A DNA stretch of 64,000 nucleotides from positions 17,807-81,806 of the IMG/VR virus record IMGVR_UViG_3300032883_000188, one strand, 5' to 3'. Below the pieces are notes generated by a model that saw only the letters and a program-made list of their open reading frames with translations, was not told the origin of the DNA and did no database searches. The number at the start of each line of letters is the position of its first letter. The stretch's first letter is position 1. Both the position numbers and the translations under genes were made by a program. Source of the DNA: a virus. Positions 4,385 to 42,800 of the stretch are shown here, piece by piece.

Positions 4385-4570
4385 CTATTTTATATATGCG
4401 GAGAAAGCAATATTATCAAGGCGAGATTGCAATTCTTTTAACTCCCCTTTTATTTTTTCAAGTTCATTTTTTTTGGCACATTGAGAACTGGTATTTAATA
4501 TATAACCAAAAGAACACACGCCCGATAAAAACCCTAGAAAAGAAAGAATTAGTAATCCAACATCGTTCAT
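4385..4570 (-). CDS. small membrane protein
   Basis: N-terminal hydrophobic helix plus short coiled coil; AAGG RBS. Confidence 0.55.
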   Translation of the reverse strand: MNDVGLLILSFLGFLSGVCSFGYILNTSSQCAKKNELEKIKGELKELQSRLDNIAFSAYIK

Positions 4571-4581
4571 GAATACCTTCC

Positions 4582-4929
4582 TTACAGGTTTAACTTTTTC
4601 TCCTTTGCTTTTTTCTCTGGATGTGCAATAGCGTCTGGATGAACCGGGTCACCAAATGCGCTCATTTCGGGTACATCGATGTTGTGGTCAACCAAAATTT
4701 TTCGAAGCATAAGAACGCAACTATAGAGATTGTCATACTTCGTGCGCCAGTTTTCATTGGCGGAAGTAAGCTGTTCTACACGCTCCTGTAGGCGTGAAAC
4801 TTCGTCTCTAAGTAAGGAAATTTCATCCCTGTGTGCCGCTCGTTTATCGACAGCACGGGAACTGATGAAGGCAAGGATACCAGTTATAATACCGCCGATG
4901 GCGAGAAGCAGGGTTGCATCTATTTGCAT
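4582..4929 (-). CDS. N-terminally anchored coiled-coil membrane protein (possible lysis accessory)
   Basis: TM helix then heptad coiled coil; GGGAGG RBS. Confidence 0.6.
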   Translation of the reverse strand: MQIDATLLLAIGGIITGILAFISSRAVDKRAAHRDEISLLRDEVSRLQERVEQLTSANENWRTKYDNLYSCVLMLRKILVDHNIDVPEMSAFGDPVHPDAIAHPEKKAKEKKLNL

Positions 4930-39364: not shown

Positions 39365-39437
39365 AGCCTCCAGATGGGCATTGAACCATCATCCTCCGCT
39401 TACAGGGCGGTAGCATCTCCGTTTATGCTTTGAAGGC
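39365..39437 (-). tRNA. tRNA-Thr(TGT)-like, atypical (C33, 8-nt T loop; possibly pseudo)
   Basis: GCCTTCA/TGGAGGC acceptor, CCGC-CCTGTAA-GCGG anticodon arm, GATGG-TTCAATGC-CCATC T arm. Confidence 0.55.
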
Positions 39438-39776: not shown

Positions 39777-41336
39777 TTATATCGTAACAGCGCTGTACTC
39801 TTCGGAGTTCAATACTTCTAGCATTGCGTCATAGGCAGTTACACCTACGGCGTTTAAAATGCCCTTAAATACACTTGGAGACTGTCCGCTTGCAAGCTGG
39901 ATACCGTGCTCATCCTTGGTGGCGTGAAACACGTTGCCGTTGCGGGAGTCAACATTCCAATAAACCATGTCTGGTAGTTCGTAACCAGCATGTGCGAATC
40001 TGGTCTTTAGCTCGGTAGTGAAGTCAACCTTGCGGCTGGTGCTACGACTATTACGGCTCATGAAACTATAACCGTTTTGAACACTATCGATTTCCATATC
40101 GGAGATAACCACAATCTTTGCTGGCATGTCTTCCTGAGAAACCTTGTTCTTTACAGCAACATCCAGAAGCAGTTCGAAAACAGCTTCCAAGTTGGTGTTG
40201 GAGTCGTCATGGTCAACGCAAGCAACCTTGTCCTTAAGAGTTGCACCCTTAAGCGTAATGAAATGAGGTGTGCTTGAGAAGGTCATGAACTGGTTGTGGA
40301 ACTGCCCCTTATTGTGCTCGGCAAAGTAAATACCAAGACCAATGGAGGTGCAAACAGGACGACCCTGCATAGAACCGGAAGTGTCCGCAACAATCAAGAC
40401 ATTCTCCCCGTTTTCCACATAATTAGGAAGAGCATTCCACTGTGCTTCAAGAGTCTCATCCCAAGAGGCAAGACCGTATACATCATGACGACCACTATAA
40501 TAACCGCGTCTTCCATCCGTATAGTAACCTGCGCTCAAACCAGCCTTTTCCAAGATATCGTAAGGGTAAAGAGTTGCAGAGTGAATAACTGCATCACCCT
40601 TCTTGACAGCCTCAAGATACTTGACAAAACGCTCACCATCGTGCTTTGAGAACGCCTTACGGCTGTTCGTCATAGCCTTACTGCAAACCTTCTCGAAATC
40701 AATTTCATTCCAGTTGTTTGCAGACATTTTCTTTTCAACAACCGCATTACCCAACGCACCACGAATGTTGGAAAGGATTCTGCGGTAATCGCGCTCGGAG
40801 AAACCCAACTTGTTGGCGGTATAACGTCCCAAAGCGCGGGTCTTCAAAGAAGATGAGTTAACGGACTTGAGCCACTTTGCAAGCAAAGAAGGACTCTTGC
40901 CCTTGGTACGGATTGTCTTAATATCCTCTACCAATTGGGTGCTAATAAAGCCCCACATCTCATTTTCTATTGGAGTATCAATGAACATATACAGGTCGTC
41001 CCAACGTCCAAAGACAGGAACAAGGTGCATGTTCTTTTTCATGATTTCTGGTACGTTAATAGCCAACCAGCGCCACATGAAACGGCTGACAGTACGCTCA
41101 CCCAAGCCACCGCGAATGTTACGTGCATAGAAACTTAACTTGGTAGCAAGCAAGCGGTCTTCCGCAAAAGCGGATGCGAACATGTCGATTACATCGCCCG
41201 GGCGGGTGCGCAATGCACCAACCGTGCCATATAAATCGAGTAAAGAACTTCCAGTGCTGGAACGAGCAATCTGTCCGTTCTCCGTGAAAGTCCAGTTGAA
41301 TTCCTCACCCAATAGAGTTGCGAAATTCTTGTTCAT
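39777..41336 (-). CDS. DUF2828-family protein: Ro60/TROVE-like helical domain plus vWA (MIDAS) domain
   Basis: TENG..A..STG..LLDL, FYARNIRGG.GER, G.WDDL, LAKW, LYPYDI, QW.ALP, ADTSGSM (DxSxS), TNL..VF, ISDMEID, YWNV, SG.S. Confidence 0.85.
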   Translation of the reverse strand: MNKNFATLLGEEFNWTFTENGQIARSSTGSSLLDLYGTVGALRTRPGDVIDMFASAFAEDRLLATKLSFYARNIRGGLGERTVSRFMWRWLAINVPEIMKKNMHLVPVFGRWDDLYMFIDTPIENEMWGFISTQLVEDIKTIRTKGKSPSLLAKWLKSVNSSSLKTRALGRYTANKLGFSERDYRRILSNIRGALGNAVVEKKMSANNWNEIDFEKVCSKAMTNSRKAFSKHDGERFVKYLEAVKKGDAVIHSATLYPYDILEKAGLSAGYYTDGRRGYYSGRHDVYGLASWDETLEAQWNALPNYVENGENVLIVADTSGSMQGRPVCTSIGLGIYFAEHNKGQFHNQFMTFSSTPHFITLKGATLKDKVACVDHDDSNTNLEAVFELLLDVAVKNKVSQEDMPAKIVVISDMEIDSVQNGYSFMSRNSRSTSRKVDFTTELKTRFAHAGYELPDMVYWNVDSRNGNVFHATKDEHGIQLASGQSPSVFKGILNAVGVTAYDAMLEVLNSEEYSAVTI

Positions 41337-41363
41337 TGTGAATCTCCCTTAGAATTTTAGTCT

Positions 41364-41394
41364 AGGCACATTTCGGAAAACGCTGTTAGTGCCT
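41364..41394 (-). ncRNA. ACAGC-array unit 1 (minimal)
   Basis: AGGCAC-UAACAGC-GUUUUCCGAAAU-GUGCCU. Confidence 0.6.
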
Positions 41395-41409
41395 GAATTC
41401 TTATTTGGC

Positions 41410-41468
41410 TAGACACCCTTTTCTCCAATTATCATTTGGGTTTTCATTTGGGTTGCTGTAGGCGTCTA
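41410..41468 (-). ncRNA. ACAGC-array unit 2
   Basis: UAGACGCC/GGUGUCUA stem (G.U), UACAGCAACCCAAA, internal CCAA-AUGAUAA-UUGG hairpin. Confidence 0.7.
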
Positions 41469-41484
41469 ATTTTATAATTGCATC

Positions 41485-41574
41485 AAGACAGTTTGTTTTT
41501 ATTAAAAATCGCATTGCAATTTTTCTCGGAATCGAACCAAGTTTATCCAGTTGTTGTGTCGCTGTAACTGTCTT
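41485..41574 (-). ncRNA. ACAGC-array unit 3 (tRNA-like T arm)
   Basis: AAGACAGUU/AACUGUCUU stem, ACAGCGACACAA, CUUGG-UUCGAUU-CCGAG T arm then a 9-bp hairpin. Confidence 0.7.
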
Positions 41575-41592
41575 TCTTATATAATCTTATGC

Positions 41593-41651
41593 AAGACCCG
41601 TAAACATTTCACATTAACAGTGTGGGTTTTTTGAGTTGCAGTGAGGGTCTT
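41593..41651 (-). ncRNA. ACAGC-array unit 4
   Basis: AAGACCC/GGGUCUU stem, CACUGCAACUCAAA, CACA-CUGUUAA-UGUG hairpin. Confidence 0.7.
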
Positions 41652-41669
41652 AAATTTATTATTTTATGC

Positions 41670-41728
41670 AAGGCACTATTAACATTTTCATCCATTGAAA
41701 GGTTTGTTTGGGTTGCTGTGAGTGCCTT
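41670..41728 (-). ncRNA. ACAGC-array unit 5
   Basis: AAGGCACU/AGUGCCUU stem, CACAGCAACCCAAA, UUUCA-AUGGA-UGAAA hairpin. Confidence 0.7.
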
Positions 41729-41776
41729 CTTACTTGCTGACCATTATCAGCCTTTCTTTCACTCTTTTCTATTTTC

Positions 41777-41844
41777 ACGGCTCATTTTGAAGTGACATTC
41801 AATTTTTTGGGGTCATTTTGTATTTGGGTTGCTGTATAAGCCGT
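41777..41844 (-). ncRNA. ACAGC-array unit 6
   Basis: ACGGCUUAU/AUGAGCCGU stem (U.G), ACAGCAACCCAAA. Confidence 0.7.
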
Positions 41845-41857
41845 AATTTATATATTC

Positions 41858-41886
41858 ATTATACCATATTTTTCATATTTTGTCAA
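41858..41886 (-). promoter_or_regulatory. consensus sigma70/sigmaA promoter inside the array
   Basis: TTGACA-17 nt-TATAAT with extended TG; predicted start just 5' of unit 6. Confidence 0.85.
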
Positions 41887-41968
41887 GACTCGGTTTTTAG
41901 CCTTTTTTCTCCGTCATGCTTGGGACGCAATATCCATAACTGTAAGTATGAATGCTGTACAAAGTCTT
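41885..41968 (-). ncRNA. ACAGC-array unit 7
   Basis: AAGACUU/GAGUCUU stem (U.G), UACAGCAUUCA, internal CGUC/GACG hairpin. Confidence 0.6.
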
Positions 41969-41985
41969 TAGAATATGAATTCGTG

Positions 41986-42015
41986 CCGGGACGCATATAT
42001 TGCGCTTTATCCCGG
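41986..42015 (-). ncRNA. ACAGC-array unit 8 (degenerate minimal)
   Basis: CCGGGA-UAAAGC-GCAAUAUAUGCG-UCCCGG. Confidence 0.4.
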
Positions 42016-42054
42016 TGACATCCCATGGATTAGACCCCTACTTTTTTTATATCC

Positions 42055-42141
42055 AAGGCTCGTTTTTTTCGGGGCTAACCCTCGGGATGGCTGTGCCATC
42101 AGACGGTTTTTCAACCAAGTTTGGGTTGCTGTATGAGCCTT
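42055..42141 (-). ncRNA. ACAGC-array unit 9
   Basis: AAGGCUC/GAGCCUU stem, AUACAGCAACCCAAA, three internal hairpins (GGUU-GAAA-AACC; GAUGGC-ACA-GCCAUC; GGG-UUAG-CCC). Confidence 0.7.
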
Positions 42142-42145
42142 ATAG

Positions 42146-42217
42146 CTGGCGGGAAAGGATTCGAACCTCTAACCTTGACGTTCAGAGCGTCCTGCGCTAC
42201 CGTTGCGCTACTCGCCA
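42146..42217 (-). tRNA. tRNA-Gln(CTG)
   Basis: Cloverleaf; GACG-CTCTGAA-CGTC; GGTTCGAATCC; CCA not encoded. Confidence 0.85.
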
Positions 42218-42221
42218 ATGT

Positions 42222-42800
42222 TTAAGCACATTTTAATGTGCCATATGCCTTTTGCCTATATGCTATAATATTATCATCCCTTATAACATAAGAAAAATCG
42301 CTTTTTGAAAGTCTTTGCATTTCCCTATTTATTTCAGAAGGATTGCAATTGCGCCATTCAAAAGTAATACTATCTATTGCGTCTACATCGAACTGCTTCA
42401 ATATCTCGCAATCATGACCTTCGGCATCTATTTTCAAATAATCAATCTTTTCAACTTTATGTTTTTCAAGAAGGTCTGCAACTGTTATCATTGGTAGTAC
42501 TATTTCACTCAAAATGTTTCTTGCATTATCAGTATGGTATTTATGTAAAGAGCCTACACCTCTCATCCAATCTCCCAAATTCATCCTCTTTATGGTTTCT
42601 TGGGTGACATAGTAAAAAGGAAAATTTCCTCTTTCAGTTCCGATAATTGAATTTTCGTAGGATACACCTTCTACACGCTCAATCAGATTAAAATACTCGG
42701 GCACTGGTTCTACAACCAAGCCATTCCAGCCCTCATCACGAGCCAGATAAACAAGATTTGAAAAGTAGTTTGCACCAATTTCTACAAAGAATTTTTTCAT
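42222..42800 (-). CDS. FkbM-family SAM-dependent methyltransferase
   Basis: FVEIGAN, GLVVEP, IDYLKIDAEGHD. Confidence 0.88.
   Translation of the reverse strand: MKKFFVEIGANYFSNLVYLARDEGWNGLVVEPVPEYFNLIERVEGVSYENSIIGTERGNFPFYYVTQETIKRMNLGDWMRGVGSLHKYHTDNARNILSEIVLPMITVADLLEKHKVEKIDYLKIDAEGHDCEILKQFDVDAIDSITFEWRNCNPSEINREMQRLSKSDFSYVIRDDNIIAYRQKAYGTLKCA

What the first reader, a model, noticed from the sequence alone, without database searches (positions are those of the whole stretch)
41425..41700. Array cargos mimic tRNA arms (T arm on a closed stem; Asn and Ile anticodon loops)
Seen: unit 3 carries CUUGG-UUCGAUU-CCGAG (41525-41541), a canonical 5-bp/7-nt TpsiC arm. It is directly abutted by a 9-bp hairpin (AAAAAUUGC-AAU-GCGAUUUUU) and preceded by a D-loop-like AACUGGAUAA. 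Unit 4 carries CACA-CUGUUAA-UGUG (41610-41624), the standard tRNA-Asn(GUU) loop. Unit 2 carries CCAA-AUGAUAA-UUGG (41425-41439), an Ile(GAU)-like loop with U33/A37. The unit 5 hairpin (UUCAAUGG-AUGAA) resembles the anticodon arm of the nearby tRNA-Ala(GGC). Established: bacterial YrlA RNAs are tRNA mimics in which a T arm stacks on a loop-closed acceptor stem, and several anti-phage systems (PrrC, RloC, PARIS AriB, retron PtuAB) act by cleaving tRNAs. Inference: the units may be Ro-presented tRNA decoys or substrates that titrate tRNA-targeting nucleases or modifying enzymes.
Basis: partly seen in the sequence, partly recalled or inferred. Interest (0 to 1): 0.78.

Follow-up and report, generated by a model that had tools for sequence, protein, structure and literature searches.

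The report
Phage Ro-like RNAs displaying tRNA parts
A phage carries a row of small RNA genes that share one conserved "handle", sit in front of a gene for a Ro60-shaped RNA-binding protein, and in two units (possibly three) display imitation tRNA parts; this looks like an undescribed, widespread cousin of the Ro60/Y-RNA particle, probably used in the phage-host struggle over tRNA.

Summary
On the minus strand, 41360-42142 holds six clear units and one weak unit. Each unit is a 7-bp closing stem, 3 nt, CAGCAAY, a variable cargo and the 3' arm. They lie upstream of a DUF2828/vWA gene whose predicted fold matches Ro60.

A covariance model built only from relatives finds exactly these units in the 64-kb window. 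It gives 351 hits beside DUF2828 genes elsewhere, all on the gene strand.

Cargos of 157 distinct related units are enriched over dinucleotide shuffles:
- T loops: 25 against 0.2 expected.
- Anticodon-type loops: 30 against 3.7 expected.
- 7-nt loops specifically.

Loop positions follow C32-U33-NNN-A37-A38. The window's CUGUUAA (Asn-like) loop recurs in 8 units with 6 covarying stems. Its T arm with an abutting closed stem recurs as a reduced YrlA-like form.

Two claims are not supported. The Ile-like loop is a singleton. The likeness to tRNA-Ala(GGC) is at chance level.

tRNA mimicry is supported. A decoy function against tRNA nucleases is untested. I found no Rfam family and no paper describing this. 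The handle differs from the published Ro60-binding motif GNCGAA.

This scan has noted the same system on other DNA in well over 100 genomes.

The parts
42145..42217 (-). tRNA-Gln(CUG), ending 3 nt before the first unit
   Evidence: ARAGORN; Rfam tRNA 57.4 bits
42052..42142 (-). Unit 1. Handle AAGGCUC / AUA-CAGCAAC / GAGCCUUG with a 63-nt cargo holding a 6-bp hairpin. The cargo starts with the same AAACUUGGUU as the T-arm unit and has the same CUUGG...CCGAG flanks, but an insert takes the place of the T loop.
   Evidence: Model R1 E=2e-4; fold; repeat D7
41890..42051 (-). Structured spacer. It may hold a degenerate unit (AAGACU..CAGCAUU..AGUCUU) whose 3' arm overlaps the -35 box. The model does not detect it.
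   Evidence: Read from sequence; no R1 hit at E<=10
41858..41886 (-). Consensus sigma-70 promoter TTGACA-17-TATAAT with an extended TG, about 10 nt before unit 2
   Evidence: 12 of 12 matches. Similar promoters precede 19 of 74 related arrays against 2 of 74 random windows.
41774..41846 (-). Unit 2. Handle ACGGCUUA / UA-CAGCAAC / UGAGCCGU. The cargo is A-rich with a weak hairpin and no tRNA-like feature.
   Evidence: R1 E=2.3e-4; fold
41667..41729 (-). Handle AAGGCACU / CA-CAGCAAC / AGUGCCUU. The cargo hairpin is UUUCA-AUGGA-UGAAA, D-loop-like.
   Evidence: R1 E=5e-8, the best hit. Similar hairpin in LeBron. Likeness to tRNA-Ala is at chance level.
41590..41652 (-). Unit 4. Handle with the variant core CUGCAAC. 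The cargo hairpin CACA-CUGUUAA-UGUG (41610-41624) carries the tRNA-Asn(GUU)-type anticodon loop.
   Evidence: R1 E=1.9e-5. The same loop occurs in 8 distinct related units with 6 covarying stems.
41482..41575 (-). Handle AAGACAGU / UA-CAGCGAC / ACUGUCUU. The cargo holds a D-loop-like CUGGAUAA (41543-41552), a T arm (41525-41541) and an abutting 9-bp closed acceptor-like stem (41504-41524). There is no D arm.
   Evidence: R1 E=2.2e-4; fold. The same layout occurs in L211, L130, L003 and L004.
41407..41469 (-). Handle AGACGCC / UA-CAGCAAC / GGUGUCUAG. The cargo hairpin is CCAA-AUGAUAA-UUGG (41425-41439).
   Evidence: R1 E=1.7e-5. The loop is a singleton among 192 cargos.
41360..41396 (-). Unit 7, minimal and weak: AGGCAC / UAA-CAGCG.. 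/ GUGCCUAG, just before the ribosome-binding site
   Evidence: R1 E=0.087; fold
39777..41336 (-). Gene for a 519-aa DUF2828 + DUF7788 (vWA) protein with a predicted Ro60-like fold
   Evidence: Pfam. phrog_850 'RNA-binding protein', E 1.7e-118. AlphaFold model with pLDDT 75.6. The top 11 Foldseek PDB hits are all Ro60/TROVE over the full length. The MIDAS motif DxSxS is invariant.
39365..39437 (-). tRNA-like gene (anticodon UGU, C33) downstream of the protein gene; the system sits inside the phage's tRNA island
   Evidence: Rfam tRNA 39.1 bits; not called by ARAGORN

Best explanation
The stretch is an operon of small non-coding RNAs of one family. Each RNA has a constant handle: a 7-bp helix closing the molecule, a 3-nt bulge and single-stranded CAGCAAY on the 5' side, and GYCU(U/A)G at the 3' end. 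Each also has an exchangeable display domain.

In this phage the displays include a reduced YrlA-like tRNA elbow (T arm stacked on a loop-closed acceptor-like stem), an anticodon arm with the tRNA-Asn loop CUGUUAA, and less specific hairpins.

A consensus promoter transcribes units 2-7 together with the downstream gene. The first unit follows tRNA-Gln.

Inferred: the handle docks the RNAs on the co-encoded Ro60-like ring protein, as the conserved stem of Y RNAs docks on Ro60. The particle then presents tRNA parts to proteins that recognise tRNA. These could be host tRNA-cleaving defence nucleases (decoy or inhibitor), or tRNA processing, modification or repair enzymes (tether).

Shown: the RNA family, its structure, its strict linkage to the gene, and the tRNA-like nature of the cargos.
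Inferred: binding to the protein.
Speculative: the target and the direction of the effect.
For: - A covariance model built from 30 units of other loci finds six window units at E 5e-8 to 2e-4, a seventh at 0.087, and nothing else in 64 kb.
- The same model gives 213 + 103 + 35 hits at E<=0.01 in 245 loci holding DUF2828 homologues, in 148 of the loci. All hits are on the gene strand and none on the opposite strand.
- The handle helix is 98% paired, with compensatory changes at 6 of 7 pairs (the units were selected for pairing).
- The protein model's best PDB matches are Ro60 proteins over the full length.
- Arrays lie upstream or downstream of the gene. They have their own consensus promoters, and downstream arrays end in terminator-like hairpins.
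- Cargos: T loops 25 against 0.19; anticodon-type loops 30 against 3.7; only 7-nt loops are over-represented (54 against 17.6 +/- 4.2); loop composition is C32 0.61, U33 0.57, A37 0.73, A38 0.68 against a background of C 0.14 and A 0.42. Enrichment replicated in genome contigs and against coding DNA.
- Relatives carry full YrlA-type domains (Rfam YrlA 41.7 bits on the tRNA-like part only) and tRNA-shaped RNAs with the handle in the anticodon position (tRNA hits of 113-127 nt).
Against: - There are no RNA data: no listed sequencing run holds the stretch as RNA, so expression, processing and RNA ends are unknown.
- Protein-RNA binding rests on adjacency alone.
- The handle does not contain the published Ro60-binding motif GNCGAAN0-1G. 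The protein shows no sequence-level match to solved Ro60 structures, and the model is of moderate confidence (pLDDT 75.6, TM 0.36-0.54).
- Several window cargos (units 1, 2, 6, 7) have no convincing tRNA-like feature.
- The stems of the anticodon-type hairpins are A/U-rich and variable, unlike real anticodon stems, so only loop and geometry are imitated.
- Neighbouring genes give no consistent functional partner: RtcB 2, RNA ligase 2 and CCA-adding-type enzyme 1 of 148.
Confidence: 0.6

Rival explanations
1. Decoy or sponge. The displayed anticodon arms and T-arm minihelices titrate or inhibit host anticodon nucleases, so that host and phage tRNAs survive. The Ro-like ring stabilises or concentrates the decoys.
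For: - The most frequent displayed anticodons are GUU (9 loci), UUU (6), UGA (5), GCU, GUC and an Asp-like AUC.
- tRNA-Lys(UUU) and tRNA-Asn(GUU) are targets of the PARIS nuclease AriB, and phage T5 escapes through its own tRNA variants (PMC12409363).
- From my own knowledge: PrrC targets tRNA-Lys; colicin E5 targets the GUN tRNAs.
- Only 2 of 46 displayed anticodons are also tRNA genes in the same locus, so the displays are not mere copies of neighbouring tRNA genes.
- Arrays have strong promoters.
Against: - Nothing links any locus to a particular defence system.
- Catalytic nucleases are hard to titrate with substrates.
- AriB cuts in the anticodon stem and reads stem sequence, whereas the mimics' stems vary freely.
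- Ser(UGA) and several other displayed anticodons are not known nuclease targets.
- Earlier checks within this scan gave bold readings of this system low odds (note e1-272486).
Confidence: 0.2
2. Tether or adaptor, as for classical Y RNAs. The display recruits a tRNA-recognising enzyme (RNase P/Z, CCA-adding enzyme, modification enzyme, RtcB-type ligase or an exonuclease) to the Ro-like ring, for surveillance or repair of damaged or misfolded tRNAs during infection.
For: - In Deinococcus, Y RNA tethers Ro60 to PNPase.
- YrlA is recognised by tRNA enzymes.
- The Salmonella rsr-yrlBA-rtcBA operon responds to damaged tRNAs (PMC4201824; PMC7790460, listed).
- RtcB, RNA ligase and a CCA-adding-type nucleotidyltransferase occur sporadically next to DUF2828 (L004).
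- The system sits inside tRNA islands.
Against: Repair genes are rare neighbours (5 of 148). Bare anticodon hairpins are poor mimics for enzymes that read the tRNA elbow or acceptor end.
Confidence: 0.2
3. Cis-acting leader. The hairpins are a structured 5' UTR that controls translation or stability of the DUF2828 mRNA, not separate RNAs.
For: In the window, units 2-7 lie between the promoter (41858-41886) and the ribosome-binding site of the gene.
Against: In many relatives the array lies downstream of the gene, with its own promoter and terminator (L001-L004 and LeBron). In others, units are scattered among tRNA genes. Unit number and cargo vary freely while the handle is constant.
Confidence: 0.05
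4. No function for the likenesses. The cargo hairpins are decayed fragments of tRNA genes, or chance AT-rich hairpins, carried by a repeated element.
For: - On the window alone, the single anticodon-type loop is not significant.
- The system lies in a tRNA island, where tRNA debris could accumulate.
Against: - Loops are conserved while stems covary: 6 stems for CUGUUAA and 5 for CUUGAAA.
- Only the 7-nt loop size is enriched.
- Enrichment holds against shuffles, against coding DNA and in an independent set.
- All 351 model hits are on the gene strand.
Confidence: 0.05

Closest known systems
Bacterial and phage Ro60 (Rsr) with YrlA-type Y RNAs (Rfam RF02553; Chen et al. 2014, PMC4201824)
   Same: - A ring-protein gene sits next to small RNA genes.
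- The RNA is closed by a 5'/3' stem carrying a conserved single-stranded motif on the 5' side.
- The distal domain imitates tRNA (T arm, loop-closed acceptor stem, D arm).
- Relatives of the window's array include units whose tRNA-like part aligns to the YrlA model.
   Different: - The protein belongs to DUF2828/DUF7788, not Pfam TROVE, and its profile has no sequence match to solved Ro60 structures.
- The handle motif is CAGCAAY 3 nt after a 7-bp helix, not GNCGAAN0-1G.
- No window unit reaches any Rfam score, and the best relative scores 41.7 bits against a cut-off of 69.
- There are arrays of 3-8 units rather than 1-2.
- Many cargos are bare anticodon-type hairpins or reduced elbows, which are not described for YrlA.
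- Phage ET08, the published phage YrlA example, has no DUF2828 homologue.
Thermus phage phiLo Ro60 with Yrl1/Yrl2 (PMC12135203; PDB 9KOP, 9L5Y)
   Same: A phage-encoded Ro60-fold protein with two Y-like RNAs encoded just upstream. It is the best structural match of the window's protein model.
   Different: The phiLo RNAs were identified by a CGAA motif in a stem-bulge-stem and are not reported as tRNA mimics. The proposed partner is host PNPase. Sequence identity to the window's protein is 12-14% in the structural alignment.
Phage-encoded tRNAs that bypass tRNA-cleaving defences (T5 tRNA-Lys/Thr/Asn against PARIS AriB; PMC12409363)
   Same: Phage RNA genes in tRNA islands whose anticodon arms correspond to tRNAs attacked by defence nucleases. 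Asn(GUU) and Lys(UUU) are among the commonest displays.
   Different: Those are complete, functional tRNAs that replace cleaved ones. Here only an anticodon arm or a T-arm/acceptor stack is present, grafted on a protein-binding handle, so it cannot be aminoacylated or decode.

Membership tests
YrlA / Y RNA (Rfam RF02553) | Reaches the Rfam gathering score (69 bits) | tested here: not met
   No YrlA hit in the array even at E<=10. The only window hit (24.6 bits) lies on two tRNA-Ala genes. The best relative, L002, scores 41.7 bits.
YrlA / Y RNA (Rfam RF02553) | Ro60-binding motif GNCGAAN0-1G (vertebrate GGUCCGA) near the 5' end | tested here: not met
   The units carry (U/A)UA-CAGCAAY in that place. 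The motif definition is from PMC4201824.
YrlA / Y RNA (Rfam RF02553) | tRNA-like domain with T arm, loop-closed acceptor stem and D arm | tested here: inconclusive
   The window unit at 41482-41575 has the T arm and the closed stem but no D arm. Full domains occur in relatives L002, L003, L130 and LeBron.
YrlA / Y RNA (Rfam RF02553) | Encoded next to a Ro60 orthologue and bound by it | tested here: inconclusive
   Adjacency is met. The protein is Ro60-like by predicted fold only. Binding cannot be tested with these tools.
Ro60 / TROVE protein | HEAT-repeat ring followed by a vWA domain with a MIDAS motif | tested here: met
   In the AlphaFold model, residues 30-265 are helical repeats and 310-519 form an alpha/beta domain. 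Foldseek ranks 1-11 are all Ro60, over about 540 aligned columns. D318-x-S320-x-S322 is invariant. Caveat: this is a prediction of moderate confidence.
Ro60 / TROVE protein | Sequence membership in Pfam TROVE, or similarity to solved Ro60 structures | tested here: not met
   Pfam gives DUF2828 + DUF7788 and a sub-threshold VWA_2 hit. A profile of 18 homologues finds no PDB chain at E<=10.
Handle RNA family beside DUF2828 genes (defined here by model R1) | A 7-bp closing helix, a 3-nt spacer, CAGCAAY, and a 3' arm ending in GYCU(U/A)G, on the strand of a DUF2828 gene | tested here: met
   Six window units at E 5e-8 to 2e-4, using a model that excludes the window.
tRNA (RF00005) | Complete cloverleaf reaching 29 bits | tested here: not met
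   No array unit of the window is hit. In relatives, handle-bearing tRNA-shaped RNAs do score 38-51 bits.

The most novel reading that the evidence does not exclude
Phages use a Ro60-like ring as a carrier for a programmable set of anticodon-arm and tRNA-elbow mimics. Each unit's displayed anticodon (Asn here; Lys, Ser and Asp elsewhere) specifies which host tRNA-targeting defence nuclease or tRNA enzyme is captured or blocked. The array would then be a modular RNA-based anti-defence system.
Probability: 0.2. Interest if true: 0.9.

Novelty: new variant of a known kind. Interest (0 to 1): 0.72.

Why it matters
What Ro60/Y-RNA particles do in bacteria and phages is still largely open, and the role of the tRNA-like domain of YrlA is unknown.

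Here a second, much more widespread branch appears. Homologues of the protein occur in 709 cultured phage records, including Listeria, Staphylococcus, Salmonella/Escherichia Felix O1-type, Bacillus and Mycobacterium phages. Its RNA partners separate a constant handle from exchangeable tRNA parts, including bare anticodon arms of specific identity.

That modularity makes the question directly testable in laboratory phages. It also ties Ro-type particles to the current picture of tRNA as a battleground between phages and bacterial immunity.

Tried and rejected
The nearest arrays studied are from relatives at 57-58% identity.
- A 14-mer scan of viral contigs with the extended motif returned only single, apparently chance matches and was not used.
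- No RNA holder was listed for the stretch and the two DNA holders held only small shares. Read laying was therefore not run. This says nothing about expression.
- A profile search of DUF2828 against PDB sequences found nothing.
- Neighbour-gene tally: no dominant partner family.
- A pseudoknot between the CUGU of the loop and the ACAG of the handle was rejected. The window unit with CUGUUAA has ACUG in the handle, so the pairing is not kept.
- The idea that every spacer holds a promoter (TTGCAT-like words after the 3' arms) was rejected. Spacers of 15-20 nt leave no room for a -10 box, and the same CUUG/CUAG ends the last unit and units of downstream arrays.
- An attC-type or other DNA-level repeat was rejected on strand specificity and G-U-tolerant covariation.
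- Likeness of unit 3 to tRNA-Ala(GGC) is at chance level.
- The Ile(GAU) reading of AUGAUAA has no support in relatives.

Full report
**What is in the sequence**

The window is part of an 81.8-kb IMG/VR phage record, about 57% complete. Almost all genes lie on the minus strand.

Between tRNA-Gln (42217-42145) and a 519-aa gene (41336-39777) there is an ORF-free stretch. Read on the minus strand, it is a row of stem-closed units. Each unit has these parts:
- a 5' arm of about 7 nt;
- three unpaired bases;
- CAGCAAY, extended to ACAGCAACCCAAA in four units;
- a variable A-rich cargo;
- the complementary 3' arm, ending in CUUG or CUAG.

The arms differ between units but always pair.

A perfect TTGACA-17-TATAAT promoter lies between unit 1 and unit 2.

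**The units belong to an RNA family tied to the neighbouring gene**

The gene product matches Pfam DUF2828 + DUF7788 (vWA-like) and PHROG 850 'RNA-binding protein'.

I fetched 245 loci that encode homologues at 37-58% identity, from metagenomes, IMG/VR and bacterial genomes, plus mycobacteriophage LeBron. The same motif occurs there in several same-strand copies, directly upstream or directly downstream of the gene.

The handle is in fixed register: (A)AGRCNY, WUA, CAGCAAY ... RNGYCU(U/A)G.

A covariance model built from 30 units of other loci shows the 7-bp helix 98% paired, with compensatory changes at 6 of 7 pairs (the units had been selected for pairing). That model gives:
- In the 64-kb window: exactly six units at E 5e-8 to 2e-4, a seventh at 0.087, and nothing else.
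- In the other loci: 351 hits at E<=0.01 in 148 of 245 loci, all on the gene strand and none opposite.

Near-consensus promoters precede 19 of 74 arrays, against 2 of 74 random windows. Arrays downstream of the gene end in terminator-like hairpins. These therefore look like RNA genes, not leaders.

**The protein**

An AlphaFold model (pLDDT 75.6) has Ro60/TROVE proteins as its 11 best PDB matches, over the full length. These include Thermus phage phiLo Ro60, Deinococcus Rsr, and Xenopus and human Ro60. A MIDAS-type DxSxS motif is invariant.

By sequence alone there is no match to solved Ro60 structures. The relation is one of predicted fold.

**Are the cargos tRNA-like beyond chance?**

A script extracted 228 clustered units on the gene strand against 4 on the opposite strand, giving 157 distinct units.

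| Measure | Cargos | Control |
|---|---|---|
| T loops (UUCRANY on a stem of 4 or more pairs) | 25 | 0.19 +/- 0.44 in dinucleotide shuffles |
| YU-NNN-RA loops | 30 | 3.7 +/- 1.9, maximum 11 of 500 shuffles |
| 7-nt loops in short cargos (stem 5 or more) | 54 | 17.6 +/- 4.2; no comparable excess at other loop sizes (at most 28 vs ~19-20 for 5-6 nt) |
| CU-NNN-AA share of 7-nt loops | 12.9% | 0.9% in coding DNA of the same loci |
| T-loop share of 7-nt loops | 14% | 0.2% in coding DNA of the same loci |

Non-T 7-nt loops have C32 0.61, U33 0.57, A37 0.73 and A38 0.68, against a background of C 0.14 and A 0.42. That is the anticodon-loop signature.

An independent set from bacterial genomes replicates the result: anticodon-type loops 8 against 0.97, and T loops 8 against 0.06.

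Recurrent loops:
- CUGUUAA (Asn): 8 units, 6 different stems, 5 sequence clusters.
- CUUUUAA (Lys).
- CUUGAAA (Ser).
- CUGCUAA (Ser).
- CUGUCAC, and an A34 variant CUAUCAC (Asp-like).

Only 2 of 46 displayed anticodons are also tRNA genes in the same locus.

**The window's units one by one**

- **Unit at 41590-41652.** It carries CUGUUAA on a 4-bp stem. Relatives as distant as 45% protein identity carry the same loop on different 5-bp stems, so this likeness is well supported.
- **Unit at 41482-41575.** It has a canonical T arm followed, without a gap, by a 9-bp closed stem. The same layout occurs in L211, L130, L003 and L004, and in 11 of 21 T-arm clusters. Five clusters add a D arm and so form a full YrlA-type permuted tRNA. 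The preceding CUGGAUAA resembles a D loop, but this motif class is only modestly enriched (28 of 192 against 15.2 +/- 3.3).
- **AUGAUAA loop (41425-41439).** It is a singleton with A32 on a 4-bp stem, and is unsupported.
- **Hairpin of 41667-41729.** It shares 8 nt with the anticodon arm of tRNA-Ala(GGC), but shuffles give such a match half the time. The hairpin resembles a UUUCA-AUGGUAA-UGAAA hairpin in a LeBron unit and is better read as D-loop-like.
- **Units 1, 2 and 7.** They show no convincing tRNA feature. Unit 1 looks like a paralogue of the T-arm unit with its T loop replaced by an insert.

**Relation to what is known**

Rfam 15 has no family for the handle. YrlA (RF02553) aligns only to the tRNA-like part of full-domain relatives, at 41.7 bits against a cut-off of 69.

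The published Ro60-binding motif of YrlA is GNCGAAN0-1G (PMC4201824). The handle here has CAGCAAY.

Phage ET08, the published phage example of YrlA, has no homologue of this protein. LeBron has a 33%-identical 'RNA-binding protein' followed by three handle units.

Paper searches for DUF2828, for Ro60/Y RNA in phages, and for anticodon decoys found no description of this RNA family. The library is limited to open-access papers and preprints.

This is therefore a new variant of the Ro60/Y-RNA kind. Notes from this scan show the same system was flagged earlier on other DNA in at least 140 genomes, with the same reading. I tested the claims independently here.

**Mechanism**

- **Shown:** family membership, structure, linkage to the gene, and tRNA-like displays.
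- **Inferred:** the handle docks on the Ro-like ring.
- **Speculative:** the particle presents tRNA parts to tRNA-recognising proteins.

Two sub-models are about equally likely:
1. Decoy or inhibitor for tRNA-cleaving defence nucleases. Asn(GUU) and Lys(UUU) are AriB targets (PMC12409363).
2. A Y-RNA-style tether that brings tRNA enzymes or an exonuclease to the ring, for tRNA surveillance or repair. RtcB, RNA ligase and a CCA-adding-type enzyme are occasional neighbours.

The A/U-rich, freely varying stems mean that only loop identity and hairpin geometry are imitated. No RNA-level data could be obtained.

Noticed in passing
L004:4556-4760: A YrlA-type handle unit whose acceptor-stem loop holds a complete tRNA(CAU) scoring 59.8 bits. 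A real tRNA is nested inside a tRNA mimic, so processing by RNase P/Z would split the mimic.
   Followed up: partly
L146:2692-2811; L178:2717-2842 and 4502-4614; L133:2455-2569 and 2711-2825; L171:2639-2756; L191:1796-1914, 1948-2064, 2243-2369: tRNA-shaped RNAs with normal acceptor ends, in which a loop-closed handle (hairpin + CAGCRAY) replaces the anticodon loop. They pass the Rfam tRNA threshold as 113-127-nt 'tRNAs' and could be mis-annotated as intron-containing tRNA genes.
   Followed up: partly
window 41890-42051 (-): Structured spacer between unit 1 and the promoter. It holds a G+C-rich nested hairpin (CCGGGA...UCCCGG) and a possible degenerate unit with CAGCAUU, whose 3' arm GAGUCUUG overlaps the -35 TTGACA.
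   Followed up: no
window 42052-42142 vs 41482-41575 (-): Unit 1 and the T-arm unit share AAACUUGGUU and the CUUGG...CCGAG flanks. In unit 1 an insert of about 29 nt with its own hairpin takes the place of the T loop. This suggests duplication followed by remodelling of the display.
   Followed up: no
L130:1321-1377, L210:397-455, L158: A recurrent loop CUAUCAC on covarying stems. It is the tRNA-Asp loop CUGUCAC with A instead of G at the wobble position. The true CUGUCAC also occurs in bacterial-genome loci.
   Followed up: no
window 39365-39437 (-): A tRNA-like gene (anticodon UGU) with C at position 33. Rfam finds it at 39.1 bits; ARAGORN does not. It lies just downstream of the DUF2828 gene.
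   Followed up: no
window 42222-42800 (-): An FkbM-type methyltransferase gene sits between tRNA-Gln and tRNA-Trp inside the tRNA island. Its substrate is unknown.
   Followed up: no
L370 (Mycobacterium phage LeBron, NC_014461.1 40160-40520): The 360-nt unannotated gap after gp53 holds three handle units: a D-loop-like hairpin unit, a full YrlA-type unit and a third unit. A terminator follows. This is a cultured, tractable example.
   Followed up: partly
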